IMG/VR virus record: IMGVR_UViG_3300022552_000002
Span: 32,001-96,000 of that record
DNA length: 64,000 bases
From: a virus
Reading direction: 5' to 3' (one strand)
Part shown: positions 14,043 through 45,100 of the stretch, piece by piece
Numbering within the stretch: position 1 is the first letter of the stretch
Layout of the letters: each line of letters begins with the position of its first letter
The notes under the pieces: generated by a model
What the model saw: only the letters and a program-made list of their open reading frames with translations
What the model was told of the DNA's origin: nothing
Databases searched by the model: none
Made by a program: the position numbers and the translations under genes

Positions 14043-14533
14043 TCTGTTCTCGGATATCTCTTCACGCCAAATTCATCGACTACGCAGACTTGTTTTCCTA
14101 GTGCCAAATATCTATCAATGGTAGAAAGCCATTGATATCCATTACTATCTTTTCTAGCGAAAATGAGTAGCGAACGTGTTTTCTCTGCCATTGAATCAAA
14201 TTTTGTAAACTTTATTTCTTTCTCAGTGTATTTCTCCATTATTTTTCGATACGGTGTGGTTCCGATCTCAGTAGTTACTCTGAATTTCCAGTTGGTAGCT
14301 TTCAATTGTTTCATGATTGATTTGAATATTTTTTGACCTTTATTTTCAGCTTCTAATCCATCTTTCAAAAGAAGTGGTATTTGGTCTCCTGGTTTTACAG
14401 AATTAGGTTGACCACGATAATCAGAATCAATAATTATCATCATAGTGCGATTTGCTTCAGCACCACGCAGAAAGATATCGTTGACGGAAGATTGTGGACT
14501 AGGTCGCATAAAACGAATTTGTTTCTTCTTCAT
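14039..14533 (-). CDS. hypothetical protein (weak SLOG/YspA-like alpha/beta pattern)
   Basis: ATGA-coupled to the M15 peptidase gene; C-terminal LLIF...STI..YLALGKQVCVV. Confidence 0.6.
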   Translation of the reverse strand: MKKKQIRFMRPSPQSSVNDIFLRGAEANRTMMIIIDSDYRGQPNSVKPGDQIPLLLKDGLEAENKGQKIFKSIMKQLKATNWKFRVTTEIGTTPYRKIMEKYTEKEIKFTKFDSMAEKTRSLLIFARKDSNGYQWLSTIDRYLALGKQVCVVDEFGVKRYPRTD

Positions 14534-15027
14534 TGTGTGACAAGCCCCTTACGATATCTTTTTTCACCAGAGAGCTTGGAGAGAACTTGTTCTCTTAGAC
14601 CACTAAGTTTTATGCTTACATGTACCCAACCACTATTAGGGCGTCCAGCTGTGTGGTATTCAAGAATCAATTGATCAAAGAAGATGTTGTTATCAATCCA
14701 TTGAGCAAGTTTAAGATTTGAGACACCGTAGATTTCGATATCACCTGCTTCACCTTTTCGATGTTGACTTCTTCTGCTACTGCCAGGTGTTGCATTATTT
14801 AGTTTAGGACCACGATATCCACTGTTGACGTGAACCGGTTTTTTGAAGTGGTCTCTAATTGGTTGAAGTACATTTTGGCAGAGTAGAGTGAGAGCTTCGA
14901 TGACTTTGAAGCTTGTTGGTGTATTGTCGATACCAAGTCTTTGAGCAATAGAAGATCTTATCATTTCTCTGAGAGTAAAGTTTTTACTGAGTCTCATATC
15001 AAGATCGACCACGAATTTCTTTGCCAT
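14530..15027 (-). CDS. peptidase M15A (D-Ala-D-Ala carboxypeptidase fold), probable endolysin
   Basis: LSKNFTLREM, VNSGYR, SQHRKGEAGDI and FDQLILEY..WVHVS motifs. Confidence 0.9.
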   Translation of the reverse strand: MAKKFVVDLDMRLSKNFTLREMIRSSIAQRLGIDNTPTSFKVIEALTLLCQNVLQPIRDHFKKPVHVNSGYRGPKLNNATPGSSRRSQHRKGEAGDIEIYGVSNLKLAQWIDNNIFFDQLILEYHTAGRPNSGWVHVSIKLSGLREQVLSKLSGEKRYRKGLVTQ

Positions 15028-16800: not shown

Positions 16801-17062
16801 CGAAGAAAAAAAAGAAGGCATCTCAACAAGGATCTTTAGCAGAAAGAAGAAAGAATCTCCTGAAGAAGAAAAAGCCAAGGTGATGGAAGAGCCAGAGGCC
16901 ATGAAGCTCGAGGAGACGGCTCCTGAGCCACCGCCACCAGCAGTTTCCAAGGCACCAGCAAAGAAGTCAAAGCTCGCTGGTCATCCGGTTGCGCGCAGAA
17001 AGCATCGAACTGTGCTTTCTCAGAAGCCAAAAGAAGCACATAAATATCTGCAAACGAAGTAA
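16793..17062 (+). CDS. low-complexity hypothetical protein
   Basis: Overlapping start; E/K/P-rich. Confidence 0.6.
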   Translation: MSDEEKKEGISTRIFSRKKKESPEEEKAKVMEEPEAMKLEETAPEPPPPAVSKAPAKKSKLAGHPVARRKHRTVLSQKPKEAHKYLQTK

Positions 17063-17078
17063 CGGTTTTTGGTGCTTC

Positions 17079-23303: not shown

Positions 23304-24557
23304 ATGGATGATCTGAGAAACCACGAACTCCTCCAGCCAGCGCATATCTCCAAGCTGCTGGATGAGATCATTCCTGACGACAGTCAGTATTACATGACGA
23401 CTATCATTCCGTTAGTCACTCAGGATACTGACGAAGTGATCGTGGATGTGCGCGACAATATCGGTGGCATGACTCAGGCAGTGGCCCAGGGTGCTGAGTC
23501 GCCGATGGTTGAGTTCCGGGGACAGAGCCAGTTCAAGTTCACCCCGGCGCATTTCCGTGAGAAGACAGTGTTGAGTGAGCGCGATCTCAAAGTGATCCGC
23601 AAGATCGGTACTGCTTCTGAGTTAGCCAAGGCTGAAGATCGTGTGGCCGAGGTCGTTGGTGGTCTGCGTATGCGCCTCGAGACAAGGATCGAGTGGTGCA
23701 AATGGCAGATGGTCTTCGGTACTCTCGACATCGATCAAACCGATGTGCAGTTCTCGGTGGATTACGGTATTCCAGCGGACTACACGCCAACACTCGCTGG
23801 TGTTGACAAATGGGATGCGCTGGCAACAGCTGATCCTGTTGATGACATCATTGAGTGGGCGTACCTGTTCAGGGATGAGGGAATCGATCCTGAGTACCTG
23901 CTCTTTACTCGTGCGGTCGAGAAGCTTCTGCTTCAGAACACAACACTGCGTGAGTTGGCCGAGGCACACTACACCAATACCGGCAAAGCCGAGATGAACA
24001 CGGCTCGCCTCAACGAGATGCTGAAAACCTTCGCGGGTTATGCATACAAGGTGTACGACAAGGGTTACTTCTTCAAGATGAAGTTAGAAACTCCTGTCAC
24101 ACCAGCGAGCACAAGCTTCATCGTCAGCGAGAACCCTGGTGTCAATACTGGTGATGAGGTGACGTTGATCCACAAGAGTGGTTCGCGTCTTCCTGGTGGA
24201 AAAGTGAAAGTCACGGTCACGCCGACCGGTCTTTCCTTTGCGCACGCTGCTATCGGTGGAACCGTGACCTTCCCGGCCGGTTCTACCGTTCGCATCAAGA
24301 AACGCTTCATCCCTGACAACCTAGCGTTGCTCATGGGTGCGGTGCCTCCTGGGACCACAGGTGGTACGGACTTCGCAGAGTTCGTTTCAACTCCAAGTCC
24401 CTACAATGGTGGCATCATGAATGCGCAGCCTGGTCCGTTCGGGAAGGTTGTTGTGGATGATGATGGCGATCCTCCTAAGGTGTCGGTCATTGCCGGTATC
24501 TCGGGGCTTCCTGTTCTGTATCATCCGACCTGCAACCTGATCGCTACTGTCTACTAG
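23304..24557 (+). CDS. major capsid protein (lambda gpE-like, HK97 fold) with inserted beta-domain
   Basis: FTPAHFREK, LETRIEWCKWQMVFG, VDYGIP, KWD..ADPVDDI, RFIPD and GLPVLYHP motifs; strong codon bias. Confidence 0.9.
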   Translation: MDDLRNHELLQPAHISKLLDEIIPDDSQYYMTTIIPLVTQDTDEVIVDVRDNIGGMTQAVAQGAESPMVEFRGQSQFKFTPAHFREKTVLSERDLKVIRKIGTASELAKAEDRVAEVVGGLRMRLETRIEWCKWQMVFGTLDIDQTDVQFSVDYGIPADYTPTLAGVDKWDALATADPVDDIIEWAYLFRDEGIDPEYLLFTRAVEKLLLQNTTLRELAEAHYTNTGKAEMNTARLNEMLKTFAGYAYKVYDKGYFFKMKLETPVTPASTSFIVSENPGVNTGDEVTLIHKSGSRLPGGKVKVTVTPTGLSFAHAAIGGTVTFPAGSTVRIKKRFIPDNLALLMGAVPPGTTGGTDFAEFVSTPSPYNGGIMNAQPGPFGKVVVDDDGDPPKVSVIAGISGLPVLYHPTCNLIATVY

Positions 24558-25469: not shown

Positions 25470-25802
25470 ATGGAAGAAGCAACAAAACTCGTTTCACTTA
25501 ATGACTTAATCACATTGAGTAATCTTGTGTTGATTATTGCGATCCAAGTTGTACTTGGTGCTGTTAAGGTCACACTCGAAAAACTGAAGCTTTTGAAAAA
25601 GCTTCCAGTGGAAATACTTCTTCCATATGCTCCAATGCTCATGGGCATGGCAGCGGCTTTTATTCCTGGTGTCATTGATGCAGCTAACTTAGGCACCAAG
25701 ATTGTTTTTGGTGTTGCGATTGGTGGCATTAGTGGTCAGATTTGGAAAGCTGTTTGGAAGAATAGTGGCGATCTTCTTGATGGTAAACTTGGAGAAAAAT
25801 AA
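25470..25802 (+). CDS. putative holin (three hydrophobic segments)
   Basis: 110 aa with TM helices and a charged C-terminal tail; precedes the spanin-like pair. Confidence 0.55.
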   Translation: MEEATKLVSLNDLITLSNLVLIIAIQVVLGAVKVTLEKLKLLKKLPVEILLPYAPMLMGMAAAFIPGVIDAANLGTKIVFGVAIGGISGQIWKAVWKNSGDLLDGKLGEK

Positions 25803-26158
25803 TGAGTTTCAAATTAATCATAAGTTGGTTTAAAACTAACGCAGTAAAAATATTACTTCTATTACTGCTTTTTGTTGTGCTTATTTTGATAGCACTCACG
25901 TTTTGGTTCAAGCTGCGTGGGTTTAAGATAACGGACTTGCTTCTTCGTTTGCAGGTGGCCAATGCTAAGAATGAGGTAAACCACCTGCAAACGAAGAAGA
26001 CACTATTAGAAGCTAAAGAAACAATTAAGATAAATGATATTAGAGAAATTGAAAAAGAAATCAAAGAAGAAAAGAAGAAAGTAGAAGCAGGAAAGATGAA
26101 GATTGAAGGGATGACAAACGATGAGATTATTGCTCGTTTTACTGAGCTTGGCTTTTAG
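25802..26158 (+). CDS. putative inner-membrane spanin-like protein
   Basis: N-terminal TM (ILLLLLLFVVLILIAL) followed by coiled coil. Confidence 0.5.
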   Translation: MSFKLIISWFKTNAVKILLLLLLFVVLILIALTFWFKLRGFKITDLLLRLQVANAKNEVNHLQTKKTLLEAKETIKINDIREIEKEIKEEKKKVEAGKMKIEGMTNDEIIARFTELGF

Positions 26159-26543
26159 CGTAAACGCTATAGCAGTTCCAGAGAAGTGTGAAACTGCCGA
26201 TGGCAGGGAGATGATTTGCTTTGATGTCGATAAAGCAAAAGAACTTTTGAAGATTGTTGACATTGAAGTTCCATCTTTAAAAAGAACAGTTGCAAAACAA
26301 CAAACACAAATTGATGCACAAAAAGAGTTAATGAAAATTAAAGATGAAAAGTTCAAAGTACAAGAAGATATAACAAATAAATGGAAAGAAAATTTTGAAA
26401 ATCTTTCTACTCAAATGGCCGCAATGAATGATGATGAACGAATAGAAGCGTATATTGATGTTGGAATCTTTTTATTAGGTACGTTGGTTGGCGGTGGCAT
26501 AATGTATACGTCTTCGTTGCTGGTGTCTAACACCATTAACTAG
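26121..26543 (+). CDS. exported coiled-coil protein with C-terminal TM anchor (spanin-partner candidate)
   Basis: Signal peptide, two Cys, coiled coil and C-terminal hydrophobic Gly-rich helix; overlaps the upstream gene. Confidence 0.5.
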   Translation: MRLLLVLLSLAFSVNAIAVPEKCETADGREMICFDVDKAKELLKIVDIEVPSLKRTVAKQQTQIDAQKELMKIKDEKFKVQEDITNKWKENFENLSTQMAAMNDDERIEAYIDVGIFLLGTLVGGGIMYTSSLLVSNTIN

Positions 26544-28760: not shown

Positions 28761-30341
28761 ATGGCTGAAGTTGTTCCAGTTTATCACCTTCTCAGCGGCA
28801 ACTACGCTGCTCTCCAAGGCGTAGATCCAGCAGTCGATACTGTCACGTTCAAGGGTCTCACCATGAACGGTGTTGTCGCTATGGACAGCACTGGTGGTGG
28901 CACACCAAATAAAATAACTGGTTTGGCTTCTGCTACAGCAGATGAAGATGCCTTAGCTTATGGTCAGACAGGTGCAGACCTTAATGGTTTGAATCTGACA
29001 GCTAACTTGACCATGAATTCCCAGAAGATTACTGGTCTTGATCCAGGTACAGCTGGTACTGATGGTGTCAATAAGAACCAGTTAGACAGCGTAGCAGCTG
29101 GTGTTGCCTGGAAACACGCAGTTCAAGTTCTCAGAATGGTCAATGATGCATTGGCTACTTCACCAACGCTTACTGCTGGTGACGCAGGCAAAGCCTATGT
29201 CGTTGCTGGTACTGGTGGTGATTGGTCTACATTCACAATCGGTGACATCGTAGAGTGGGATGGTTCTGCTTGGAATCTCGTTCTAGCTGGTTCCGGTGCT
29301 GAGCCGCCAGACGGAACGTATGTTATCATCGTTGAAACCAGTGCAGCTGGTTCATTCGCTGGTCAAGAGAATGAAGTTGCTGTCTACAACGCCACCACCA
29401 ACACATGGGCATTTACTCCAGCATCAGATGGTGATGGACGTACTGTTGCTGGCGAAAACAGTGTTTACGAAAACCTCGGTTACGTCTGGGATGCGACTCC
29501 AGGCGAATGGGTCATGTTCAATGGCCCTGGTCAAATCGTAGCTGGCGCTGGTCTAACAAAGACCTTCAATCAGCTTGATGCAAATGTCAAAGATGGTATT
29601 CAGATTGATGCTGATGCTATCACACTTCTTCTTGCTGCAACTCCAGGTCTCCAACTTACTGGTACATCACCAGCGAAAGTTCTTTCGGTTCTTCCTGATG
29701 GAGCTAAGGGCGTTGAAGTTGGCGCAAGCGGTGTAGCGGTAATAGTTGAGTCAGATGGTGCTATTGAATTCGATGGCACGAACGGTGGGTTGGAAATTAA
29801 CCTCGAAGCATCCAATCCTACATTGGATATTGTTTCGAATGAACTTGGTGTTAAGTATAGCGCCACAGCAGGCGGTCTTACTCAAGACTCTACTGGTTTG
29901 AAAGTCAAGGTTGACGGTACAACCATCACAATCAATGGCTCTGGTCAATTGGTTGGAGCATCAGCAGATGGTGATCGCATTGCTGATGATTATGTGGTCA
30001 GTGAAAACATTTCAGCTGGTGATCCGGTTTACTGGAGCACAACAGCAAATCAAGTTGCTCAAGGTGATGCAGCACAAGCTTTGTGGCCGAGCCATGCACA
30101 AATCTTTGGTGTTGCAGAAGATGCAGCTACAACTGGCAATTCGTCAACTATCGTTAGTAGAGGACCGTGTCTCGGTGTTCTTTCAAGCGCGACTCCTGGC
30201 GATATTTATTGGATGGCAGTCGGAGGTGGAATCACCACTACCATTCCTTCAACGAACAATGCTCTCATCCGTGCAGGGTGGGCAAAGAACGCAGATGATC
30301 TCTTTGTGTCCATAGCCGACTACGGTCGTCGCGGATACTAA
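28761..30341 (+). CDS. fibre/spike protein (YadA-stalk-like motifs, DUF2793-like region, beta repeats)
   Basis: KITGLASAT.DEDA and KITGLDPGTAGTDGVNKNQLD; AYVVAG..GDW..GQENEVAVY; G/A/T-rich. Confidence 0.75.
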   Translation: MAEVVPVYHLLSGNYAALQGVDPAVDTVTFKGLTMNGVVAMDSTGGGTPNKITGLASATADEDALAYGQTGADLNGLNLTANLTMNSQKITGLDPGTAGTDGVNKNQLDSVAAGVAWKHAVQVLRMVNDALATSPTLTAGDAGKAYVVAGTGGDWSTFTIGDIVEWDGSAWNLVLAGSGAEPPDGTYVIIVETSAAGSFAGQENEVAVYNATTNTWAFTPASDGDGRTVAGENSVYENLGYVWDATPGEWVMFNGPGQIVAGAGLTKTFNQLDANVKDGIQIDADAITLLLAATPGLQLTGTSPAKVLSVLPDGAKGVEVGASGVAVIVESDGAIEFDGTNGGLEINLEASNPTLDIVSNELGVKYSATAGGLTQDSTGLKVKVDGTTITINGSGQLVGASADGDRIADDYVVSENISAGDPVYWSTTANQVAQGDAAQALWPSHAQIFGVAEDAATTGNSSTIVSRGPCLGVLSSATPGDIYWMAVGGGITTTIPSTNNALIRAGWAKNADDLFVSIADYGRRGY

Positions 30342-30369
30342 GGTTTTGGTAGAGGGTAAGGGATAAGAA

Positions 30370-31152
30370 ATGCCATTAACACCCGACGACTACGATGTAG
30401 TTCAGGTCGTTAAACAAGAATGGCCTAATCTCGGCGGGAAACCTGGCCCACTTATCCCTTACTCTCTTCCTATTGAACCTCTTGAAGATGGAATTGAAGC
30501 AGGAGCATTATTTGTAGTTGAAGTTGGAAGAAGAAATAAAAATGTAGCTATTTGGGCCAATCAAGGAAAGATGATTTTTAAAGATATTGAGAACCCAGGT
30601 GTTGGTGGAATTGGATATACACTTACGCAGATTCTTACCGCAATTCTTGGACAAGTAAGAGTCAGCGCTAATGACACTATTGCTGGTTATCTAAATGGCA
30701 AACTTATAGCTGGTACAGGAGTAAATCTCAATGAGCTGAATGACGGTGGTAATGAGGCGTTAGAGATTTCAGCTGAGTTTTCTGAGATCTTTTCGGTTGA
30801 TTACGACACCGCTACTAACATACAAAGCACAAGCAGCACTACAGCGCAGGATGCTGGAGTGTCTGTTGAAATTCCTGTTGATGGTGATTATGTCGTATTC
30901 TTTGATTCTGAAACTCGTGTTTCTAATAGTAATGGTGATATGGCTATTAGTCTTAGCGCACCAAATACAATAATTGAAAATTCTAGTACGGTGCGTATTA
31001 TTGGTGGAAATAAACGTAGTTCGTCTATTATTATTTATCCATTTATTGGTTTGAGTACCGGTGATGTGATTAAAGGATTATTTCGCAAAGAAGGTGGTCC
31101 TGGCACGGCTTATGTTTATAACCGTTCCATGTTTTTGATGAGGATTGGCTGA
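30370..31152 (+). CDS. putative structural protein
   Basis: VRVSANDT.AGYL.GKL.AG motif typical of fibre proteins; beta-sandwich C-terminus. Confidence 0.7.
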   Translation: MPLTPDDYDVVQVVKQEWPNLGGKPGPLIPYSLPIEPLEDGIEAGALFVVEVGRRNKNVAIWANQGKMIFKDIENPGVGGIGYTLTQILTAILGQVRVSANDTIAGYLNGKLIAGTGVNLNELNDGGNEALEISAEFSEIFSVDYDTATNIQSTSSTTAQDAGVSVEIPVDGDYVVFFDSETRVSNSNGDMAISLSAPNTIIENSSTVRIIGGNKRSSSIIIYPFIGLSTGDVIKGLFRKEGGPGTAYVYNRSMFLMRIG

Positions 31153-32000
31153 TGACTGCTACTAAGTATCAGTATTCCATCTCCAACGATTTTCCCAATC
31201 AGGCAGTAGATACTGACCGCTTGGAACAAGAAATTCGTGACAGTGTCATTATAATTGCTCTTGACTATGTTAATACGTCAGGTGACGACTGCGATATTTG
31301 GTTTAAAGATGCATTGTCAGCTGGTGATAAAACAATACTTGATGGAATCGTTGCATCACACTCTGGTCTTCCATTAACACCAGATCCAACTGAAGTTATT
31401 ATTCAAGAAGAGTATGGTGTTAAAAGAACTGGTGGAAATTTTGGATCACGTAGTCATAATTTCGACATTTCATCTGGTGTTCCTGGTGCATTAACTGAAC
31501 ACGATTTTAGTTTTCCAATTCCAATAGCTATTTTCAGCGCTCAACTTATTGGAAAAGAAATACTGGAAGGTGATGAAATAGAATTTCAGATAGCACCAGA
31601 TACTCCCATTGGAGCGTTAGTAGCAGATGTTGCTGTTGATGCTGAAGTAATAACTGTTACGCAAAGTGCGTATGACAATTTGAAAGTTGGTTTTACTGTA
31701 TGTTTAGATGACCAAACAAATCACAACAATCTGGGTATGGTGGTAGAAAAACAAGTAAACAATCAAATCAAAGTAGAGAAGAAAACTACAAATGCTTTTG
31801 CTGCATCTACACCAACGTATGTTCTTTTAACAGTGAAGATGATTCCTCATGGACATCTTCCATCTTGTTCTCGTCTTGTTCTTGGTGAAAGTAAAATTGG
31901 TGGTACATACATTAATGCAAATACAACACTTAGAATTATGTATAGAAATTCAGATGGACAAGCTAAGAAATTTGATTTCTGGTTAGAGTACATGTATTAA
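31152..32000 (+). CDS. putative structural protein
   Basis: 282 aa; contains the LVADVAVDAEVITV decoration module. Confidence 0.7.
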   Translation: MTATKYQYSISNDFPNQAVDTDRLEQEIRDSVIIIALDYVNTSGDDCDIWFKDALSAGDKTILDGIVASHSGLPLTPDPTEVIIQEEYGVKRTGGNFGSRSHNFDISSGVPGALTEHDFSFPIPIAIFSAQLIGKEILEGDEIEFQIAPDTPIGALVADVAVDAEVITVTQSAYDNLKVGFTVCLDDQTNHNNLGMVVEKQVNNQIKVEKKTTNAFAASTPTYVLLTVKMIPHGHLPSCSRLVLGESKIGGTYINANTTLRIMYRNSDGQAKKFDFWLEYMY

Positions 32001-32044: not shown

Positions 32045-32398
32045 ATGGGAAACATAATAAGCATATTAAAGGAACTTGTTGGAATATTACGTGATGGTGG
32101 TCCATACGCAGGTTGGGCACTTTTTATTATACTTTGGTATTTTGAGCGCAGAGAAAATAAAATATTCAGAAAGGAAGGAATAAATTTAGCAATAGCACAA
32201 GTAGAAAATAATGTAAAAACAGAAATGACACTTCAGTCTTTAAAAGAGGCATTGAGTGGTGTTAAATATTCTCTTGGAGATATCACTGCTATATTAAATA
32301 AAATACAAACAATGAAAGAATCTTTACTCCAATTATCTTCTAAGCCTGACCTGAAACTTTTAGAAGACAAAACGAAGGCAGACGACAAAGAAGAATAG
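32045..32398 (+). CDS. holin-like single-TM protein (BhlA/UviB-like architecture)
   Basis: GPYAGWALFIILWYF.RRE TM segment followed by coiled coil. Confidence 0.5.
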   Translation: MGNIISILKELVGILRDGGPYAGWALFIILWYFERRENKIFRKEGINLAIAQVENNVKTEMTLQSLKEALSGVKYSLGDITAILNKIQTMKESLLQLSSKPDLKLLEDKTKADDKEE

Positions 32399-32407
32399 GA
32401 GAAAAGC

Positions 32408-32773
32408 ATGTTTGGTTTTTTATTTTCAAAAAGAAAAATAAATAGAAATAGAGAAAAAGCAAAGGAAGATAAAACATCATTAGGAAATCTTTTATTAAAA
32501 AGTGGTATTATTGAACCAGACGATCTGTGTGATGCATTGGAATTTCAAGATGAGAATACAGATTTTATGTTAGGAGAAGCTTTGATTCAATTAGGCAAAA
32601 TAGATCGAGGAATTGTTGAAGCGCTTTTATGGACACAAAGAGTAGAACGAGGAGAAGAAGAACCAGCTAAAGTTATTCAATTTGCGACAAAACACACACA
32701 AAGAATTATGATAATAAAAGATGAAGTAAATGTAATGGCTCTGAGCCTCAATGGAAAGAAAGCTAAAGCATGA
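32408..32773 (+). CDS. stand-alone MshEN-like (T2SS/type IV pilus ATPase N-terminal, c-di-GMP-binding fold) protein
   Basis: Tandem motifs SLGNLLLKSGIIEPDDLCDALEFQ and MLGEALIQLGKIDRGIVEALLWTQ match RLGxxLLxxGxIxxxxLxxxLxxQ except for the leading Arg. Confidence 0.8.
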   Translation: MFGFLFSKRKINRNREKAKEDKTSLGNLLLKSGIIEPDDLCDALEFQDENTDFMLGEALIQLGKIDRGIVEALLWTQRVERGEEEPAKVIQFATKHTQRIMIIKDEVNVMALSLNGKKAKA

Positions 32774-33618
32774 TGGAACTTCCTATCGTTGGCGCTGGCG
32801 GTGGTGCAACACTCTATGCTCATTGGGGTGCACTTCAGTGTTTGATGGATCATGATATTTATCCATCAAGTCTCATTGGTGCATCTGCTGGTGCAGTTGC
32901 TTTCGCTCCAATTGCAAATGGAATGAAACCACATGATTGCTTAGGTATAGCACTTGAGCTTCTTCCAAAGAAAGTAATGTCATTTAATTGGAGATTTTGG
33001 CAAAGAGGTCATTGGGGTTTCTATACCTTAAAAGGATTGGAAAAAGCTTTAAGCAAATATGCTCCTAAGAAATTCTGTCAATGTTTGATTCCACTTTATG
33101 TTGCTACAACAGATTTAACTACAATGAGATCAAGGATATTTAATCCCGATACAACGCCTACCATGAAAGTAGCTAAAGCAGTAAGGATATCAGCTAGTGT
33201 CCCATTTCTCTTTGATTTTGTTCCTTTTGATAACACTATTTTTTCTGATGGAGGTATTGTTGATAATTATCCAATCGATTTAGTTGTTCCAGGTTCAATT
33301 GATTTAACAAAAGAACCAGCAATAGGTTTTAGACTTTTATCTTCTGGTGAAAGTACAACCAATAAAACACCAGATACTTTCTTGGAAGCAGCTATTAATG
33401 TTTTAGGAGCAATGAGAGCAGAAGCAGAAAGAAAACATATCGAAAATGCAAATATTTGGTCACGCACCATCAATATTCATGTGCCATGGAATTCGATGGA
33501 CTTTTTGAATATTACCCAGGAGAAAATTGAGGAAATCTATCAAGTCGGTTATGATGCTGTTCAGAAGAAATTAGATTCTGGATGGAATCCAATGGAGGTT
33601 CCTGATGTCCTTAGTTAA
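32770..33618 (+). CDS. patatin-like phospholipase
   Basis: Gly-rich GAGGGA, nucleophile GASAG, AVRISASVPF.F and catalytic SDGG motifs. Confidence 0.92.
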   Translation: MMELPIVGAGGGATLYAHWGALQCLMDHDIYPSSLIGASAGAVAFAPIANGMKPHDCLGIALELLPKKVMSFNWRFWQRGHWGFYTLKGLEKALSKYAPKKFCQCLIPLYVATTDLTTMRSRIFNPDTTPTMKVAKAVRISASVPFLFDFVPFDNTIFSDGGIVDNYPIDLVVPGSIDLTKEPAIGFRLLSSGESTTNKTPDTFLEAAINVLGAMRAEAERKHIENANIWSRTINIHVPWNSMDFLNITQEKIEEIYQVGYDAVQKKLDSGWNPMEVPDVLS

Positions 33619-35967: not shown

Positions 35968-37752
35968 ATGGGTACTCTTGGTCGAATTGCAATTGGAGCC
36001 CGTGGCCAGACTTCCTACGGGGAAGAGGTCGCTTGGGGCGAACCAGTTGCGCCTACTCGAAGAGTGGGTTTTGTTTCTGAATCTTTCAACAACGAGATCG
36101 CAAGTCTCGTTTCAGAGGAAATCGATCCTAGTCGTGGTATCTCGAAGCGTGCTCAAGGTGTGAGTAACATCTCGGGTGATCTAGCTTTCGAGCAGAACAC
36201 GCAGGGATACGAAACTCTGTACAAACATGCTCTTGGTGATCACGTCACCATGAACAAGGTTGATGGTGGTGTTCGAACACAGATTCTTTCTGATTACGTT
36301 TCAGGTACAACGTTGTCAGTTGAGAACAATGCTGTGTTCGAAGGCACACCTGGAGCGGATTGGGGTCTGTCAGTTGTCTACAAAGACAGCAATGGACTCT
36401 TGACCGTTCAGGCAGTGGTATATTCTGCGCTGGATTCTGGTGGTGAAGACATCACCATCGTCGATCCAAGTCAGGTGCTTCATAAGGGCGCGTGGGTTTT
36501 CCAGAGCTATATCGGCAGCGATGACTTCTGGGATGATGTTTACACGCACTACATCGAAGCAGCACGCGATCTTCCCATCGGTCTGACCTGGGAGATCGGT
36601 CGTGACGTGGCGTTCTTCACTTATGGTGGCTGCAAAGTCAACACAGCGGAGAATACCTTCACGGCACAGGAGATTTGCACAGGCACATTCTCCTACATCG
36701 GTAAGGGCGAGTATGTTGGTGGTGAGTTGGTTTCTGATGTCACTGCTGGTGATACAACCTTTACTCTCACTGACTACGTTCTGACAAACAGTGGTAGCAT
36801 TAGTGCTGCTGTTCAGACTGTTGGTGCTGGTCTCAGTGACATCACTGTGAGTGGTGCGTTCACTGGTGATGAAACAACCGCTTACCAAATCAAGATCTCG
36901 TTGGCAGGTGCCACAGACGAGTTTGACTGGTCGAGCGATGGTGGCGTGACCTGGACAACTGGTGTCGTTATGACTGGTGCAGCTCAGCTGCTCGACCAAG
37001 GCGTCTCCATTACATGGGCAGCTATCACAGGCCATGTGCTTGATGACGAGTGGCGCATTCAGACTGGTGACATCATCGGTTTCAACTTCTCCGGTGCCAC
37101 GGTGCAGATGGAGTCCGAGAACGATATCACTTACACAAGCTATAACGCTTACAGTGGTGTCTTCTCTGGTGTTCCAGCTTCCGGTGTTGGTTCTGTCGAG
37201 TATGACCATAGTGCAACTCTTCCGGTTGCTCCGCAGTCTACTTGGGGAACCAGCGTCACAGAGCCGCCAGCTCTCAATCCCATTACTAGCTTCAAGGCTG
37301 GTATCTACATCAATGGGACGTTCCAAGAGGTGCTGTCTGCTAGCTGGACCCTCAACAACAACCTGTTCGCAGACAAGTTCCAGCTTGGTGACAGATACCG
37401 AGCTGGTCTTCCTGAGCAGCAAAGAACGGTTGAGGGCACGTTCAACACCGAGTTCGATGATACGGTCCTCTACAAAGCTTATCTCAAAGGTGCTCGTGCT
37501 TTCCTCGAGATTCGCTGCATTGAAGACCAGAACCGCATCGACAGCCAAGGTGTGCAGACTGCTCCGACAGGACACTGGATTTACTCCCAGAAGCACTGTC
37601 TGTTCCCGAAGGTCTACTACAGTGGCACCACACCGCAGATCGGTGGCCCTGAGCAGATCGTCCACGATTTCCCGTTCCAGGCATTCGTGGATAACGAGAA
37701 CACCATGAATGAAATGGCGCTCATCTTCGTCAACGAAAGAGTGTCCATCTAG
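35968..37752 (+). CDS. major tail tube protein with inserted domains
   Basis: GEEVAWGEP..FVSES, FTYGGCKVN, WTLNNNL..RTVEGTF.TEFDD and LFPKVYY motifs; strong codon bias. Confidence 0.85.
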   Translation: MGTLGRIAIGARGQTSYGEEVAWGEPVAPTRRVGFVSESFNNEIASLVSEEIDPSRGISKRAQGVSNISGDLAFEQNTQGYETLYKHALGDHVTMNKVDGGVRTQILSDYVSGTTLSVENNAVFEGTPGADWGLSVVYKDSNGLLTVQAVVYSALDSGGEDITIVDPSQVLHKGAWVFQSYIGSDDFWDDVYTHYIEAARDLPIGLTWEIGRDVAFFTYGGCKVNTAENTFTAQEICTGTFSYIGKGEYVGGELVSDVTAGDTTFTLTDYVLTNSGSISAAVQTVGAGLSDITVSGAFTGDETTAYQIKISLAGATDEFDWSSDGGVTWTTGVVMTGAAQLLDQGVSITWAAITGHVLDDEWRIQTGDIIGFNFSGATVQMESENDITYTSYNAYSGVFSGVPASGVGSVEYDHSATLPVAPQSTWGTSVTEPPALNPITSFKAGIYINGTFQEVLSASWTLNNNLFADKFQLGDRYRAGLPEQQRTVEGTFNTEFDDTVLYKAYLKGARAFLEIRCIEDQNRIDSQGVQTAPTGHWIYSQKHCLFPKVYYSGTTPQIGGPEQIVHDFPFQAFVDNENTMNEMALIFVNERVSI

Positions 37753-39140: not shown

Positions 39141-42100
39141 ATGACAGGCGGTGGCCGAAGTATCACCTTCGGCGTTAATATATCTGTCAAAGAATTAGGT
39201 CTGATCAAGAAGCTTGCTACAGAGCTTCGTGAGTTCTCTACTGGTGCGATTGAAGCAGCAAAAGGTTTAGCTGCCATCAATAAAGTTGGTGGTCAGATTA
39301 ATCCAGCGAATATCGATAAAGCAGCACAAGCTTTCGATAAACTAAATCAAGCTTTTCAAAGAATAAAAACAACAAGTTCTACCGCAGGTCTTGGTTCTGT
39401 AGCTAAAGAAGTTAGTCAAGCTACTGGACAAATGGATGGTTTCACTCGAAAAACATCTACATTGCGTAGTCAATTGGCTGAAGTAAATAAAGAAGCTTCA
39501 AAGATATCTACATCAATAAAATCAGACGAAGCATTAAGGGCAACTAAAACACAAATTGATAATACAAGATCTGCAACAAATAAATTACTTAGTAATTTTC
39601 AAAAGATATTATCTACAAGACAAAAACTTTCTCAATCAGAACGAGATGGCGTAACAGTAACTCAGTCAGTAGTAACTCAAGCCAATAGAGCTGTGGAGAG
39701 CTTTAGACAACTCCACAGAACCACACAATTCAATATTCAGGCATTCAGTGCTGCTTCTAAAAATGTAGAGAAGTTAGGTGTTGATGCAGATACAGTAAAG
39801 AATAGATATAAAAAAGTATCTGATGTTGTTAAACAATTAGTAGGAGAAATTCAAAAATTAGCAGCAACATCTCAACAAAGAATTAATCTAGAAAAACAAG
39901 CGAATGCTGTAATTAAAAGTTCTGGTCGTATTGCTGCATCGAAACAACTTCAACAAGCACAACAGAATCTCAACAAAGAAAAAATCAAAGGCATTGAGCT
40001 GACTTCTCAGTTAGCTCAGATCGAAAGAGAAAGAGCGCGTGCTGCTCAACAACGTAGAGAGATAGTTGCTACACCACGAGGTGCATTTGGTGCTGGTGCA
40101 GCTGGTGCCGATGCTCAATCTAAATCAATAGAAGCGGCAACAAAAGCTCTTGATGCATACGATAATAGACTTAAAGCATCTAAAGCTCTTATAGAACAAC
40201 ACAATCAAGTTCAACGTACAGCTGCACAAGTTACATTGAGAACTGCTGCCGTTAGAAATGCAGCAGCAATGGAAGTTCGTGCTGCTCAAAACATGATCGC
40301 ACAAGGTTTTAGTCAAGTTTCACAGAAGGAATTACAAAGAGCACAACAATCGAGACTTTTTGCACAACAAGAACTTGAAAATGCTAAGAAAGTTTTAGCA
40401 GCCAGACAACAAACTTTCCAACAATCGGCTGCTGCCTCTAAAGTATATGATAAGACTCAAAAAGACCAAATAAGAACAAGTCAAGCTCTTATAAATCAAC
40501 AACAAAGACAGAGTGGTTTTCTTAATAAAATAAATGAAGGTTTTACTAGAGTTATTAGAACACAATTACTTTACTTTGCTTCTACAATATTGATATTCGG
40601 AGCTATCGCAAAACTCAATGCATCATTCGAATCTCTTGTTGAACTTTCTGGACGTACAGCTAGAGCATTTGCTGTTTCTCGTTCTTCTGTACTTCTCTTT
40701 GAAGAACGTTTTGTTGCTCTACAAGAAGCAGTAGAAACAACCGCTGCTGTAACTGGTGAATCTATCAACGATGTAAGTGAAGCTATTTTCCAATTTGGTA
40801 GTGCTGGTCTTCAAGCAGAAGAATCTATTGCAGCTCTTGAATCTACAATGAATCTGATTCAGGCAACTGGTGCAGATGTAACAACTACTACAAAAACAAT
40901 TGCAGCAACATATCGTTTGATGCGTGGTCAACTTGAAGATGTTGGCGATCAAACAGCAAAGTTCGCACGTATCAATGATATTATTGCTGCCACATATAGA
41001 GACAACCAAGTTGAAATTAACGACTTCACTCAAGCAATGAAGTTTGCTCTTCCTGTATCACGCCAGTTGAATCTTAATCTTGAACAGACTTCTGGAATCA
41101 TCGCTCTCTTACATAACAACTTCATTCGTGGTGGTGAATCTGGTAGAGCACTACGTGTCATCTTCTCGCGTATGTCGAGAGAGATGGATCAATTCTCTGA
41201 AGCATTTGGTATTGCAATCGATCCAGATAAACCATTAGATTTCTTAGATGTAATGGAACAGATTAGCAATCGAATGAACACTGGTGCAATCACAGCTAAT
41301 CAAGTTGCTACTGTTTTCGAGAGATTAGGTCTTCGTGGTGCAAATGCTTTCATTATTATGGCTCAACAATTTGAAGAATTAAATGGTGTTATCGGTAAAT
41401 TAGAAGACACTTCTGCTGGTGCAGCGAAATCAATGGCACTTATCAAACGTGAAAGCGATCCAGGACAGCTTAAAGTATTTACAGAGAATATGCTGATACT
41501 TGGTCGTACAGCAATTGAACCTATTGGATTTATTATTTTGAAAGTTGTTCGAGCAATTAATACATTTGCAGAAGCAATTAGAGACACAGGAGTAGAAAAA
41601 GTTCTTGGTATTTTATTGAGACTAGTTTCTGTTCTTATCACAATAAAAGTTGCTGCTGCTCTTGCTTCACTTATTTTTGGTCAACTTGGTATCAGCACTG
41701 GATTCATGGCTACTTCATCAATAGCCGCAGCATTAGCACAAGGTAAATTAATATTTGCAATGGAGTCTTCTTTAATAGTTGCTAAGAAAAATATCGCAAC
41801 TATGCTTTCGCTTTCTGGTGCTTTGAATGTTTTGAAATTAGCAGCAATCAAAACTGGTGCAGTTCTTATTGCTGCTTTTCCATATGTAGCAATTGTAGCG
41901 TTAATTGGTGTTTTAGTTTATTGGATTTATCGACAAATTACAGCACAAGAAAGATTGATTGAGATAAATAATGAGAGACTCGAACAAATCAGAGAAGAAA
42001 AGAAGGAAAGAAATGAACAACTTGCTTCTTATGACAATACAATAGCAAAACTTGAAGATCTTAATCGAGCTTATGAAGAGAATCGCACCACTATATTAGA

Positions 42101-45100
42101 AACGCGCAAAGCAATATCTGAAGCTGTTAAATCTCATGGAGAACTTGGTATTGCGGCAGCTGTTGCTGGTGATGATCTTGGTTTATTTATCAATAAAACT
42201 AAAGAACAAAGAGCACAAATTCAAAGTTTATTAGATGAATTAAAGAAAGAAGATAAAGAAATATTCAAACAAAATATAGAAATATTCACACAAAATATCG
42301 ACAATGCTGCTGCCGCATATGCTAATCTTCAAGATCAATTAGATAGAGGCGTTATACAAAAAGCTAGTCCTCGTGGATTGATTCAAGAGTTTAAAATAAC
42401 TGAAGGTGAAATCGAAAATCAAAGAGAAAAATTAGCTCAATATCAAAAGAACGCGAGAGATGCTGCGCTTGAAATGATAAAACTTGCTAATAGTAATGGC
42501 GAATTAGCAAGATCGTTTGGTGTAGTAATTAACGAAGCATTTTCTGTTGCAGCATCTATGAATGCTTCAGCAGAAAATGCAAAAAGTTTTGGAAATGTAT
42601 TAGAATATTTAGAAAGAACAGCTATAAATCTTTCAGAACTTCCTCTTAGAGAAAAGATTGATGAACTTAGAAAAACAGTTGAAGGTTTAGAAGGACTAAG
42701 ACTAAAGTTTTTGTTCAAATATGATTTCATTATTCCACAAGAAAGCATTAATGAAGCAAAAAAGAAAACACAAGATGCTATCAATAAAATTAAATTACTA
42801 ACTAAATCTGATAGAGAAATAAAAATTACTTTATTGTATGAAGAAGAAGATTTCTCTATTAATATGGAACATGTAAAAAAGAATGCAGATCAATTAGCAG
42901 AAATTACTAATTCTGCTATGAGAGATGCAACAAAAGGTTTAGATTTAGCACAATATATTACAGTAGATGACCAACAAATTGTTAATTTATTCGAAGCTGT
43001 TGCAGAAAATACAAAACTTATAAAAAGTGGTTTTCAAGAAGGATCTAAAGAAGCTGTAAAATTTGCAAATAATGCTAAGAAAATAGACGATGTTCGGCGT
43101 AGTATTCTTTCTCAAGCACAATTTTACGCTAAAAATCGAAACGAAATTGAAATTATCGAAAGAACTATCAATACGCTCCTTGAAGATAGAGTCGCATTAG
43201 CAGAATATTTAGTGGTATTACAACAAAGACAAATAGCTGTCACTTCTGCATATAATTTGCAATTGAATGCAGAAATAGATCTACTTCAGAAGACAAGAAA
43301 TCTTAGTCTCAACACAACAAAAAATACACAAGATCGAGTTGATGCAACAAGAGAACAAGTTGTTGCTACAGGTATATTATATAGAGGTGCTGTTGCTAAT
43401 GAAAAAATAGCAAGAAATAATTTGAAGACAATTGAAGATACGAAAAAAGGTATTCTAGGTACTATACGTCATTATTTAACATTAAAAGAAGCTTCTAGTG
43501 AAGTAGAAAATGCCACAAAAGAAAGAGGCGAAATATACGAAAATCATAGAAAGTCATTAGAAGGACATACTAAATCGCTTTTGGCTCAAGTCAATTGGAC
43601 ACATCAAATGAAGTCAGAAATTGAAAAATCATTTGATGCTCATAGAAAAATAAATCTTTACGGAGAAGATAGAGTTAGTCAATTAAGAGCAGAACTTGTT
43701 CATCAACGAAATATCATTAAAGAAGAAAAAAGATATTTAAAAGATTTAATAAGTGAAGGAATTATTCTTGAAGATAAAGAAATTTTGAAAGCAAAAGATA
43801 GAGAATTAAGGGCCAAAACTGCTGAGTTACAAAGAAAAGAAACTCAAGAAATTTTCAAACAAAATATTGGATTGTTAAAAAATGCACAAGCTTTAGAATT
43901 AGCTTTAGCATCTGGTTCAGAGATGTTAAAAGTTAGCCAAAATATTGCTTTAATAGATGCTCGACTTGTAAATGAAATGGAATTGTATAATAAATTGGTA
44001 AAAAGAATTAAAAAAGAAGAAAATAGTGTATATAGATTAGATAGACAAAGACTTGTGGTAATGGGTAGAATTAGAGCAGAAGCCGAAAAACGAGTTAAAC
44101 AAGTTATTAAAGCTTTCGAAAAAGAAGTAGATATACGCAATCAATTTATCGAACAAGTCAACACAATAAGAGAAATGAATATAGCATTAGAAGAATCAAA
44201 AGACATTAAGGAACAAATACTCATTAGCACTATGGAAGAGCAAATTGCTTCTAAAGAATTAGAAACCATACAAAATAGAATCAATGTAATTGAAAAAGAA
44301 AGAGAGCTACAAGGATTTAGTGAGATTACAAGAAGATTAGAATTAAATAATCTGTACAACCAACAAGCAGATATAATCAAGAATCGGATTGTTAAAGAAC
44401 AACAAAAATTAAATAGTATTAGAGAAAAAGAAAGAAACTTAATAGATTCTGTTAACAATCTATATGGCAAACAACTTGATAATATCGGACAAGTGAGAGA
44501 CGCATTAGAAGAAGCATTCAAACCATTAGTTGAATTTGATTTCGATCAACGTCCATTTACTGCTGCTATCTTTGCTTCCCAAGCGCTTGGGAAGAATCTC
44601 TTAGAGATAGCTCAATTAAGTCCACAACAAGTTATTGATGAACTCAATACAGGTCTCCGTGAAGGAACTGTTGATTTCAAGATATTCAGCGGTCATGCTC
44701 GAGAACTAGCTGAACATATTGCGCGCATTGGTGCAGAGGAAAGAGAGCTTCGTCAAATACAAGAAGATATAAGAGCACAAGAATTTGCAACAGATTTGCT
44801 TAGAGTTAAACGTGCATTATCTGTAGAAGACATAGAAGCAGCAAAAAAAGCTTTTGATAAACTTGGTGAGAGCGCTCAGGTTTTAGATCCCATTACTGGT
44901 AAAGTAGATTATGATGCTACTCGAAAAAATATGAATATGTTGAAAGATTTAGCAAATGAAATAGCAACAGCATATGAAGAAGCTGGAAATACAACTGAAC
45001 AAAATCTAAAAAATCTTCAAACTAGATTGAATGAAATTCTTGGAGATATTGCTGAAGTAACAACAAAGATAGCAGATGAGTTAAAGAATACGAAGTTTGC

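What the first reader, a model, noticed from the sequence alone, without database searches (positions are those of the whole stretch)
32045..33618. Candidate new system: holin-like protein, stand-alone MshEN (c-di-GMP-receptor fold) and patatin phospholipase embedded in the virion operon
Seen: three adjacent non-structural-looking genes interrupt the structural cluster. They are a single-TM coiled-coil protein, a 121-aa protein that is essentially two tandem MshEN motifs (SLGNLLLKSGII....L..AL..Q / MLGEALIQLGKI....V..LL..Q) with an amphipathic MFGFLFSKRK N-terminus, and, ATGA-coupled to it, a patatin with intact GASAG and DGG catalytic motifs. Known: MshEN is a high-affinity c-di-GMP-binding module (RLGxxLLxxGxIxxxxLxxxLxxQ) of PilB/MshE/GspE ATPases, and patatin-fold CapV is a cyclic-dinucleotide-activated membrane-destroying effector in CBASS. 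Inference, with alternatives: (a) a second-messenger-gated lysis module coupling membrane destruction to the host's c-di-GMP (biofilm vs motile) state; (b) a cyclic-dinucleotide sponge; (c) a dominant-negative mimic of the pilus-ATPase N-domain that shuts off type IV pili for superinfection exclusion. Caveat: both leading Arg residues are replaced (S, M), so ligand affinity or specificity may be changed or lost. I know of no described phage module with this composition.
Basis: partly seen in the sequence, partly recalled or inferred. Interest (0 to 1): 0.85.

Follow-up and report, generated by a model that had tools for sequence, protein, structure and literature searches.

The report
Phage lipase beside membrane-anchored MshEN-like pair
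An uncultured marine-sediment phage carries, inside its virion-gene operon, an intact patatin-type lipase next to a conserved two-gene pair (a small hydrophobic-anchor/coiled-coil protein and a mini-protein built on the four-helix c-di-GMP-binding bundle of bacterial pilus ATPases); it is probably a late envelope-breaking or lysis-control unit, but nothing has been tested at the bench.

Summary
Three coupled genes (32045-32398, 32408-32773, 32770-33618) sit between fibre-like genes and the tail module of a large siphovirus-like phage. The 282-aa protein is a patatin with its Ser and DGG motifs intact. The 121-aa protein is a real homologue of the MshEN_N subdomain by profile and by predicted fold, but it misses NCBIfam's curated cut-off by 3 bits.

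What is new here:
- The conserved unit is the pair, not the trio. It recurs with a patatin in three close relatives and one distant high-GC contig. It recurs without a patatin at the same locus in others, and beside a different unknown protein in a third group.
- The small protein belongs to a wide, unnamed, mostly viral family.
- That family keeps every hydrophobic, Gly and Gln position of the MshEN motif but has a conserved Ser where MshE has Arg9.
- Published PilF data cut both ways. Leu or Lys at that position binds better than Arg, while Ser abolished binding in one construct.
- The phage has its endolysin 17 kb away and three other small membrane proteins.

Best reading (0.4): a late lysis or envelope-disruption accessory, closest to the proposed, untested patatin cassette of phage WO. 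Ligand gating is unproven. This scan noted the same pair earlier in other phage genomes.

The parts
32045..32398 (+). Gene 1: 117-aa protein. It has an N-terminal helix, the motif DGG-PYAGWALFIILWYF-ERR (an uncharged core of 14 residues), a coiled-coil region and an acidic, charged tail. It is the obligatory partner of gene 2. It is holin-like in shape only.
   Evidence: ORF. No Pfam, PHROG, NCBIfam or PADLOC family. Family of 24 proteins, all metagenomic. Core length and +2 charge on the C-terminal flank. Alignment A6. Found next to an MshEN-like gene in L001, L007, L039, L040-L043, L045 and L047. PF10960 Holin_BhlA finds nothing in the genome even at E<=10.
32408..32773 (+). Gene 2: 121-aa stand-alone MshEN_N-like protein. 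It has a hydrophobic tip plus basic N-terminal helix (1-20), a four-helix core (23-80) and a C-terminal helix (86-117, modelled at low confidence).
32477..32548 (+). MshEN-type motif I (residues 24-47, S-LG-..-LL-..-G-II-....-L-...-L-..-Q). Position 1 is Ser instead of Arg, Lys or Leu.
   Evidence: Direct reading. Column statistics over 68 family members: S 62/68, L/I 66/68, G 66/68, Q 60/68.
32549..32566 (+). Spacer between the motifs. It is 6 residues (DENTDF) against 5 in MshE and PilF. N50 and D52 are conserved within the family.
   Evidence: Direct reading; the 5-residue spacer is given in PMC5013675.
32567..32638 (+). MshEN-type motif II (residues 54-77, M-LG-..-LI-..-G-KI-....-V-...-L-..-Q). 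Position 1 is Met (family: M31, L21, R7, F5).
   Evidence: G56 68/68, Q77 67/68.
32770..33618 (+). Gene 3: 282-aa patatin-like phospholipase with no signal peptide. It has a Gly-rich loop GAGGGA (8-13), a nucleophile elbow GASAG (Ser39, nt 32884-32886) and a DGG Asp160 (nt 33247-33255).
   Evidence: PF01734 E 3.7e-25. Alignment A7 shows S39 and D160-G161-G162 invariant, including in the 33%-identical L039 homologue. The best solved relative is PlpD, 5.6e-11. Homologues are confined to a few phage-like contigs.

Best explanation
The trio is an accessory late-gene unit that acts on the host cell envelope at the end of infection.

Gene 1 is a small protein held in or on the cytoplasmic membrane by a short aromatic-rich hydrophobic helix. 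The positive-inside charge bias predicts that its coiled-coil tail faces the cytoplasm. [quoted passage not shown] It works with gene 1 as a fixed pair, probably as a regulator or adaptor that sets when or where membrane damage occurs. A comparison is a cytoplasmic antiholin or the GspE-N/GspL pairing, both named from general knowledge.

In this phage lineage the pair has acquired a cytoplasmic patatin phospholipase as an extra effector. This enzyme would hydrolyse membrane phospholipids once lysis starts. It would thus play a role like mycobacteriophage LysB, or like the patatin proposed for phage WO.

Shown: gene order, coupling, purifying selection, homology and fold of gene 2, intact catalytic dyad of gene 3, recurrence of the pair with and without the lipase.

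Inferred: membrane anchoring, physical pairing, late expression, any link to lysis, lipase activity, and nucleotide binding. My odds that gene 2 still binds c-di-GMP at physiological affinity are about 0.35. My odds that it binds some cyclic or linear dinucleotide are about 0.5.
For: 1. Position and coupling. The three genes lie in one strand-continuous late operon between fibre-like and tail genes, with overlapping or near-abutting starts. There is no promoter or terminator signal above chance.
2. The pair is conserved across very different GC contents and contexts, always adjacent and usually overlapping: window, L001, L007, L039, L040-L043, L045, L047. Contig-length matching places both genes on four long contigs of 149110, 53299, 39342 and 143682 nt.
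3. A patatin follows the pair both in the low-GC window clade and in high-GC L039, with Ser and DGG conserved at 33% identity. Other contexts put the pair next to a multi-TM small protein (L047) or an unknown 158-aa protein (L040-L043). This modular make-up is typical of lysis cassettes.
4. All three genes are under purifying selection.
5. Gene 1 has the gross features used to call holin-like proteins: under 150 aa, an N-terminal hydrophobic helix, a coiled coil and a charged C-terminus. The same criteria, with the same placement directly upstream of the tail module beside a patatin, were used for the proposed phage WO cassette (PMC9203015).
6. The phage's endolysin (window 14530-15027, minus strand; PF08291 7e-19, phrog_894 9e-37) has no membrane-protein neighbour. 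Holin-type functions must therefore be encoded elsewhere.
7. The patatin has no signal peptide (direct reading of the N-terminus). My inference, from what I know of ExoU and CapV, is that a cytoplasmic patatin made with virion proteins would need to be held in check. That makes a coupled regulator plausible.
8. Nearest language-model clusters for genes 1 and 2 are mostly viral, and one cluster near gene 1 is 28% Holin_BhlA. This is a lead only.
Against: 1. No gene of the trio matches any holin, antiholin, spanin or lysis family in Pfam, PHROGs or NCBIfam.
2. The hydrophobic core of gene 1 is only 13-14 uncharged residues, which is short for a membrane span.
3. The endolysin is 17 kb away on the other strand. 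A separate set of three small membrane proteins lies at 25470-26543: a 2-3-TM protein, an N-terminal-TM coiled-coil protein, and a signal-peptide protein with a C-terminal TM. This set could already supply holin and spanin functions.
4. In my own loci the pair is never seen next to a recognisable endolysin. The 158-aa neighbour in L040-L043 has only a PHROG hit to a family annotated 'enoyl-CoA hydratase-like'.
5. Within this phage group the pair always sits among virion genes, which would also fit an assembly role.
Confidence: 0.4

Rival explanations
1. Nucleotide-gated switch in the strict sense, the first reader's option (a). Gene 2 binds host c-di-GMP, or an asymmetric dinucleotide such as 3'3'-cGAMP, and through gene 1 switches the patatin or lysis on or off according to host state.
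For: Every hydrophobic, Gly and Gln position of both 24-residue motifs is kept across 68 family members. Q77 is 67/68 and Q47 is 60/68, and these Gln are known only as ligand contacts (PMC5013675, PMC11731258). The isolated MshEN_N subdomain of MshE binds c-di-GMP with Kd 0.35 uM. Leu or Lys at position 1 gives nM affinity in PilF. The asymmetry, Ser in motif I against Met/Leu in motif II, could suit an asymmetric ligand (inference).
Against: Ser at position 1 removed all measurable binding in a resurrected PilF GSPII-A construct (PMC12002112). The spacer is one residue longer than in MshE and PilF. The score is below NCBIfam's curated cut-off. Relatives keep the pair without any patatin. No cyclase or phosphodiesterase was seen among the phage ORFs scanned.
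Confidence: 0.2
2. Interference with the host type IV pilus or type II secretion machinery, the reader's option (c). The MshEN_N mimic, tethered by a bitopic GspL/PilN-like partner, docks on the pilus platform or ATPase and blocks it. The effect would be superinfection exclusion or protection of progeny from adsorbing to dying cells.
For: The fold and sequence come from the N-terminus of PilB/MshE/GspE ATPases. The MAG that carries a close relative of the phage contig has a PilB-like gene with this N-terminus. Gene 1 has the TM-plus-coiled-coil shape of DivIC-type and pilus-platform bitopic proteins (structure lead).
Against: The genes sit in the late structural operon with no promoter of their own above chance, whereas exclusion functions are usually early or lysogenic (general knowledge). 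The family is deeply diverged from any PilB, at about 30-38% identity over 55 residues, and is not a recent capture. The patatin link is left unexplained.
Confidence: 0.12
3. Virion or assembly role. The pair is a membrane-associated assembly factor or minor virion component of this phage group, and the patatin is a virion-borne enzyme used at entry.
For: In the window clade and in L044-L046 the pair lies at a fixed place between fibre-like genes and the homologue of the 404-aa protein that heads the tail module.
Against: In L040-L043, L039 and L047 the pair lies among different neighbours. No PHROG structural family matches. Gene 2 is a signalling-type fold. The patatin can be lost without loss of the pair.
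Confidence: 0.12
4. Cyclic-dinucleotide sponge or anti-defence protein, the reader's option (b). A variant of this reading is a phage-carried CBASS-like effector directed against competing phages.
For: The small size and possible dinucleotide pocket of gene 2. Patatin is the CapV fold, with a weak PADLOC 'Effector phospholipase' hit at 2e-6.
Against: The CBASS lipase model scores 20.5 bits against a cut-off of 200. No cyclase was found. The late-operon position and the strict pairing with a membrane protein are unlike known sponges (general knowledge of Acb2 and Tad1/2). The only structural likeness to Tad1 is a generic helical hairpin in the low-confidence tail (rank 17).
Confidence: 0.06

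Closest known systems
MshEN_N subdomain of V. cholerae MshE (PDB 5HTL) and GSPII-B of T. thermophilus PilF (PDB 8PDK); NCBIfam NF053729
   Same: Two tandem 24-residue hLGxxhhxxGhhxxxxLxxxLxxQ motifs forming a four-helix bundle. Top structural matches have rmsd 1.1-1.6 A over 53-60 residues at 30-38% identity. There is profile-level homology. The isolated subdomain is a sufficient c-di-GMP binder in MshE.
   Different: It stands alone, with no MshEN_C subdomain and no ATPase. It has a family-specific basic N-terminal helix and a C-terminal helix. Ser occupies position 1 of motif I. The spacer is 6 residues. It is viral, and always paired with a small hydrophobic-anchor protein. It scores below the curated cut-off (34.9 against 38 bits) and gets no Pfam T2SSE_N hit at E<=0.1.
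Proposed patatin-based lytic cassette of Wolbachia phage WO (Bordenstein & Bordenstein 2022, PMC9203015). It is a hypothesis in that paper and has not been tested.
   Same: A patatin-like phospholipase lies next to a small holin-like protein (N-terminal hydrophobic helix, C-terminal coiled coil, under 150 aa, charged tail), placed immediately upstream of the tail module.
   Different: WO has an ankyrin-repeat protein and no MshEN-like gene. WO lacks a canonical endolysin, whereas this phage has an M15 endolysin. Sequence homology between the two holin-like proteins and between the two patatins could not be tested here. No WO record appeared among the GenBank phage hits.
LysB lipolytic lysis enzymes of mycobacteriophages (from general knowledge)
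   Same: A phage-encoded lipid esterase that is an optional accessory to holin and endolysin and helps breach a lipid outer layer at lysis.
   Different: LysB has a cutinase-like alpha/beta-hydrolase fold, not a patatin fold, and sits in a recognisable lysis cassette. No MshEN-like partner is involved.
CapV, the cGAMP-activated patatin effector of CBASS (NCBIfam NF041079)
   Same: A cytoplasmic patatin-fold phospholipase whose activity is controlled by a cyclic dinucleotide. This is the conceptual model for a nucleotide-gated membrane attack.
   Different: It is not an equivalog (20.5 against 200 bits). In CapV the nucleotide binds the enzyme itself. No CD-NTase is present. The context is a phage late operon, not a defence island.

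Membership tests
MshEN_N c-di-GMP-binding subdomain (NF053729; N-terminal part of Pfam T2SSE_N) | Two tandem 24-residue motifs with conserved L-G, two hydrophobic pairs, a turn Gly, LxxxL and a terminal Gln | tested here: met
   Residues 24-47 and 54-77 fit at every position except position 1. One 'h' position of motif II is Lys (K64). Family-wide conservation is shown.
MshEN_N c-di-GMP-binding subdomain (NF053729; N-terminal part of Pfam T2SSE_N) | Position 1 of each motif is Arg, extended to Lys or Leu by the PilF work, and stacks on a guanine | tested here: not met
   Motif I has Ser24 (Ser in 62 of 68 family members), and Ser at the motif-II equivalent abolished binding in PilF GSPII-A constructs. 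Motif II has Met54, which is hydrophobic like PilF L196 and so acceptable.
MshEN_N c-di-GMP-binding subdomain (NF053729; N-terminal part of Pfam T2SSE_N) | 5-residue spacer between the motifs | tested here: not met
   The spacer is 6 residues (DENTDF). HMMER opens a one-residue gap against MshE.
MshEN_N c-di-GMP-binding subdomain (NF053729; N-terminal part of Pfam T2SSE_N) | Four-helix bundle superposable on MshE/PilF | tested here: met
   The AF2 core has pLDDT 84-88. In Foldseek the top 12 hits are all MshE/PilF, rmsd 1.1 A over 53 residues, probability 0.99, although E is only about 0.5. In VIA-wide the top 3 of 48,161 chains are 5htl Z 7.9, 8pdk Z 6.8 and 6f8l Z 6.3.
MshEN_N c-di-GMP-binding subdomain (NF053729; N-terminal part of Pfam T2SSE_N) | Score over the curated family cut-off | tested here: not met
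   NF053729 scores 34.9 bits against a cut-off of 38, with E 9.4e-9. Pfam T2SSE_N is not listed at E<=0.1. Homology is nevertheless clear from profiles.
MshEN_N c-di-GMP-binding subdomain (NF053729; N-terminal part of Pfam T2SSE_N) | Binds c-di-GMP | not testable with these tools
   Needs ITC, DRaCALA or DSF with purified protein.
Patatin-like phospholipase (PF01734) | HMM score over the gathering cut-off | tested here: met
   89.7 bits against 27.7, E 3.7e-25, residues 9-172.
Patatin-like phospholipase (PF01734) | Ser-Asp catalytic dyad in GxSxG and DG[GA] motifs | tested here: met
   GASAG (Ser39) and DGG (Asp160). Both are invariant in four homologues down to 33% identity.
Patatin-like phospholipase (PF01734) | Gly-rich oxyanion loop (GGxR/K type) | tested here: inconclusive
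   The GAGGGA loop is present at residues 8-13 but lacks the basic residue (direct reading).
CBASS CapV phospholipase (NF041079) | Equivalog-level score, and a CD-NTase in the same unit | tested here: not met
   20.5 bits against a cut-off of 200. No cyclase family was found among the phage ORFs scanned.
Holin | At least one transmembrane helix in a small protein with a charged C-terminus | tested here: inconclusive
   The protein is 117 aa with a charged tail, but the uncharged hydrophobic core is only 13-14 residues across the family.
Holin | Match to a known holin family, or adjacency to the endolysin | tested here: not met
   No Pfam, PHROG or NCBIfam hit. PF10960 finds nothing in the genome at E<=10. 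The endolysin lies 17 kb away on the other strand.
Phage WO-type patatin lytic cassette (proposed, PMC9203015) | Patatin plus a small holin-like protein directly upstream of the tail module | tested here: met
   Gene order compared with the paper's description.
Phage WO-type patatin lytic cassette (proposed, PMC9203015) | Ankyrin-repeat partner; no canonical endolysin in the genome; sequence homology of the components | tested here: not met
   There is no ankyrin gene in the unit. An M15 endolysin is present. Homology to WO proteins was not tested because no WO sequence was at hand.

The most novel reading that the evidence does not exclude
The 121-aa protein is the founding example of a widespread viral family of membrane-tethered dinucleotide receptors. 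Its conserved Ser-for-Arg change and one-residue-longer spacer retune the MshEN pocket, for example to an asymmetric ligand such as 3'3'-cGAMP or to a different affinity window for c-di-GMP. Through the gene-1 anchor it would couple the time of lysis, and in this lineage the release of a membrane-destroying patatin, to a host second messenger.
Probability: 0.2. Interest if true: 0.85.

Novelty: new variant of a known kind. Interest (0 to 1): 0.6.

Why it matters
If the pair controls lysis or membrane attack, it adds a new and apparently widespread component to phage lysis systems. If gene 2 binds a dinucleotide, it would be the first viral receptor of the MshEN type and a direct route by which phages read host second messengers, such as biofilm against motile state.

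The question can be tested directly. The protein is small, soluble-looking and has clear point-mutant controls (S24R, Q47E/Q77E). The family-wide Ser at the stacking position is also a natural experiment on what the MshEN motif needs in order to bind. The patatin link gives a second, independent example beside phage WO of a lipase recruited next to a holin-like gene upstream of the tail genes.

If instead the fold is only a structural adaptor, the finding is a modest annotation gain: a name for a common pair of phage 'hypothetical proteins'.

Tried and rejected
The long contigs holding the more distant pair members (143,682, 60,669 and 35,430 nt) could not be read.
- Complex prediction of gene 1 with gene 2 gave no verdict: score 0.23 against a mark of 0.32, and the controls were not run. 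This is neither support nor evidence against binding.
- AF2 of the 158-aa neighbour of the pair in L040-L043 gave pLDDT 41, too poor to search. Sequence and profile searches of it against PDB and Pfam found nothing. My recollection that its SHAW...TCSE pattern resembles permuted NlpC/P60 enzymes is untested.
- IMG/VR scans returned only one related contig or chance hits. The queries were the single protein, three family alignments, the gene-1 alignment and a hand-made degenerate DNA pattern.
- GenBank phages have no match to gene 1 or gene 2, and only three weak patatin hits.
- BFVD gave no significant structural match.
- The Holin_BhlA lead from the protein atlas was not borne out by the HMM.
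- PADLOC gave nothing for genes 1 and 2.
- The promoter and terminator scan showed nothing above shuffled expectation.
- No fusion of a gene-1-like anchor to the small MshEN-like family was seen among the 150 best representatives. The TM-bearing multi-repeat hits have a different architecture, several MshEN_N repeats followed by a TM and a further domain.
- No RNA holder was listed among sequencing runs, so expression is not assessed.
- PHROG and Pfam scans of neighbours in L040 and L042 did not identify lysis or structural genes.
Full report
**What the window is.** The window is 64 kb of a 109,973-nt IMG/VR virus record, estimated 76% complete. It is a large tailed phage with these genes:
- large terminase, 16989-19094
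- portal, 19101-20723
- major head protein, 23304-24557
- tail tube, 35968-37752 (PF18906)
- a 3752-aa tape-measure-sized ORF, 39141-50399

DNA nearly identical to the region occurs in marine and sediment metagenome runs, some of which may be the source sample.

**Checking the observation.** They lie on the same strand as all the virion genes. Upstream are fibre or decoration-like genes: a 526-aa protein with a YadA-stalk and head-decoration likeness, then 260-aa and 282-aa proteins. Downstream are a 404-aa protein, 204-aa and 178-aa proteins and the tail tube. Gene 2 follows gene 1 after 9 nt. Gene 3 overlaps gene 2 by ATGA, and the 404-aa gene overlaps gene 3 by 14 nt. A consensus scan finds no promoter or terminator signal above shuffled expectation, so the trio is read as part of the late operon. 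Pairwise dN/dS against two relatives is 0.25-0.34 for gene 1, 0.13-0.16 for gene 2 and 0.07-0.16 for gene 3. All three are therefore real, selected genes.

**Gene 3.** It is a patatin (PF01734, 89.7 bits). The nucleophile Ser39 in GASAG and Asp160 in DGG are invariant, even in a 33%-identical homologue. There is no signal peptide. It is not a CapV equivalog (NF041079 20.5 bits against 200; PADLOC effector models only 2e-6). Its nearest solved relative is PlpD. Its close homologues are confined to a handful of phage-like contigs, and patatins are almost absent from GenBank phages.

**Gene 2.** Sequence evidence for MshEN_N homology:
- phmmer against PDB picks only PilF and MshE.
- NCBIfam's 53-position 'c-di-GMP_motif' model gives E 9.4e-9. 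At 34.9 bits it stays under the curated 38. Pfam T2SSE_N does not report it.
- A profile of the close family found 951 proteins at E<=1e-3.
- A 68-member family profile hits the first 55 or so residues of 550-600-aa PilB-like ORFs in 145 of 301 genomes, at 1e-9 to 1e-14.
- The same profile aligns to the PilB-like protein of the MAG carrying a related phage contig with 97% probability.

Structural evidence: AF2 models residues 21-80 at pLDDT 84-88 as four helices. Foldseek's top twelve PDB hits are all c-di-GMP-bound MshE/PilF domains, with rmsd 1.1 A over 53 residues. An independent all-against-representatives search puts MshE (Z 7.9) and PilF (Z 6.8 and 6.3) at ranks 1-3 of 48,161 chains. The Z values are middling in absolute terms, and the rest of that list is generic helical hairpins matched to the low-confidence C-terminal helix. 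The protein is thus a stand-alone MshEN_N subdomain flanked by a basic N-terminal helix and a C-terminal helix.

**Would it bind c-di-GMP?**

For binding:
- Across 68 family members every hydrophobic, Gly and Gln position of both motifs is conserved: G56 68/68, Q77 67/68, Q47 60/68.
- The two Gln are ligand contacts in MshE and PilF, and the PilF double Q-to-E mutant loses binding.
- The isolated MshE N-subdomain binds with Kd 0.35 uM.
PilF GSPII-B has Lys and Leu at these positions and binds at 6 nM. K167L binds at 2 nM, and Arg substitutions weaken binding. Met54 is therefore no problem.

Against binding:
- Position 1 of motif I is Ser in 62 of 68 members.
- In resurrected PilF GSPII-A constructs, a Ser at the equivalent motif-II position removed all measurable binding.
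- The inter-motif spacer is one residue longer than in MshE and PilF.

A Ser conserved this strongly is a family trait, not decay. It could mean an altered ligand or no ligand. I put canonical c-di-GMP binding at about 0.35.

**Gene 1.** It has no family in any library. Its relatives share the motif L+EL..VL+DGG.YAGWALF...ERR...AQVENNV. The uncharged hydrophobic core is only 13-14 residues, with a +2 charge bias on the C-terminal side. It probably anchors in or on the membrane with the coiled coil in the cytoplasm, but a full span is not assured. A language-model lead to Holin_BhlA was not confirmed by the HMM.

**The main new result: the unit is a pair.**
- Three close relatives have the same trio at the same place, although the fibre genes upstream differ: L001/L006/L053 from one IMG/VR contig, and L007 from a contig binned in a Halanaerobiales MAG.
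- A distant, high-GC metagenome contig (L039) also has all three genes with overlapping starts.
- L044, L045 and L046 have the pair directly followed by the homologue of the 404-aa protein, with no patatin.
- L040-L043 have an unknown 158-aa protein, then the pair, then unrelated genes.
- L047 has a multi-TM small protein, a shortened gene-1 homologue, and the MshEN-like gene.
- About half of the best 150 hits are full-length, single-domain proteins of 100-130 aa, all unnamed and metagenomic. Their nearest atlas clusters are mostly viral.

This scan's earlier notes report the same pair in several other phage genomes, some beside endolysins. I could not verify those contexts and use them only as leads.

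**Other lysis-relevant genes in this phage.**
- An M15 endolysin lies at window 14530-15027 on the minus strand (PF08291, phrog_894). Its neighbours have no membrane segments.
- Three small membrane proteins lie at 25470-26543 inside the head-gene region: a 2-3-TM protein, an N-terminal-TM plus coiled-coil protein, and a protein with a signal peptide, a coiled coil and a C-terminal TM. They look like a holin/spanin set but match no family.
- The trio is therefore not the only candidate for lysis functions.

**Interpretation.** The most economical reading is a late envelope-acting accessory. A membrane-anchored protein and its cytoplasmic MshEN_N-like partner form the constant part, and hydrolases or membrane proteins are swapped in around it as in modular lysis cassettes. 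Here the swapped-in part is a cytoplasmic patatin that would have to be restrained until the end of infection.

The nearest published idea is the untested patatin-based lytic cassette of phage WO. That cassette has a patatin and a small holin-like protein of the same gross shape, also directly upstream of the tail module. It has an ankyrin protein instead of an MshEN-like one, and WO has no endolysin.

I give this reading 0.4. Strict nucleotide gating gets 0.2, pilus or secretion interference 0.12, an assembly or virion role 0.12, and a sponge or defence role 0.06. The remainder is unassigned.

**Novelty.** Full-text searches found no paper linking MshEN to phage lysis genes. No paper combined patatin, phage and lysis cassette apart from the WO work. 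I rate the finding a new variant of known kinds: a lysis-type cassette with a lipase, plus an MshEN-type module. There is a 0.2 chance that it is a truly new viral second-messenger receptor system.

Noticed in passing
window 25470-26543 (+): Three adjacent small membrane proteins lie inside the head-gene region: 110 aa with 2-3 TM segments; 118 aa with an N-terminal TM plus coiled coil (i-spanin-like shape); and 140 aa with a signal peptide, a coiled coil and a C-terminal TM. They have no family hits. They could be the phage's holin/spanin set.
   Followed up: partly
window 14530-15027 (-): The only recognisable endolysin (Peptidase_M15_3, phrog_894) sits alone on the minus strand. It lies between nucleotide-metabolism genes and the terminase, with no membrane-protein neighbour.
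   Followed up: partly
L003 7687-10179 (G000:C1:103687-106182): An 831-aa SNF2/DEAD-type helicase is interrupted by a Hint domain plus a LAGLIDADG homing endonuclease, that is, an intein.
   Followed up: no
window 39141-50399 (+): A single 3752-aa ORF lies in the tape-measure position with several hydrophobic segments. If it is a tape measure, the tail would be exceptionally long.
   Followed up: no
window 28761-32000 compared with L001 1698-7091 and L007 1106-5628: The fibre-like genes just upstream of the trio are swapped between close relatives (526/260/282 aa here; 526/197/835/228; 524/198/189/293/288). The trio and the tail genes stay syntenic.
   Followed up: no
L040 121-594, L041 975-1448, L042 5207-5680, L043 1023-1496: A conserved 158-aa protein with invariant His and Cys residues sits directly upstream of the pair in a high-GC group. 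It matches only phrog_1128 (annotated enoyl-CoA hydratase-like). It has no Pfam or PDB match, and AF2 failed on it (pLDDT 41).
   Followed up: partly
L039 950-1735: The distant patatin homologue keeps the Ser and the DGG but has ATSGS in place of GxSxG, so both flanking glycines of the nucleophile elbow are replaced.
   Followed up: no
window 10114-10189 and 11892-11964 (+): The phage carries tRNA-Lys(UUU) and tRNA-Met(CAU) among nucleotide-metabolism genes (thymidylate synthase, thymidylate kinase, a DprA-like protein).
   Followed up: no
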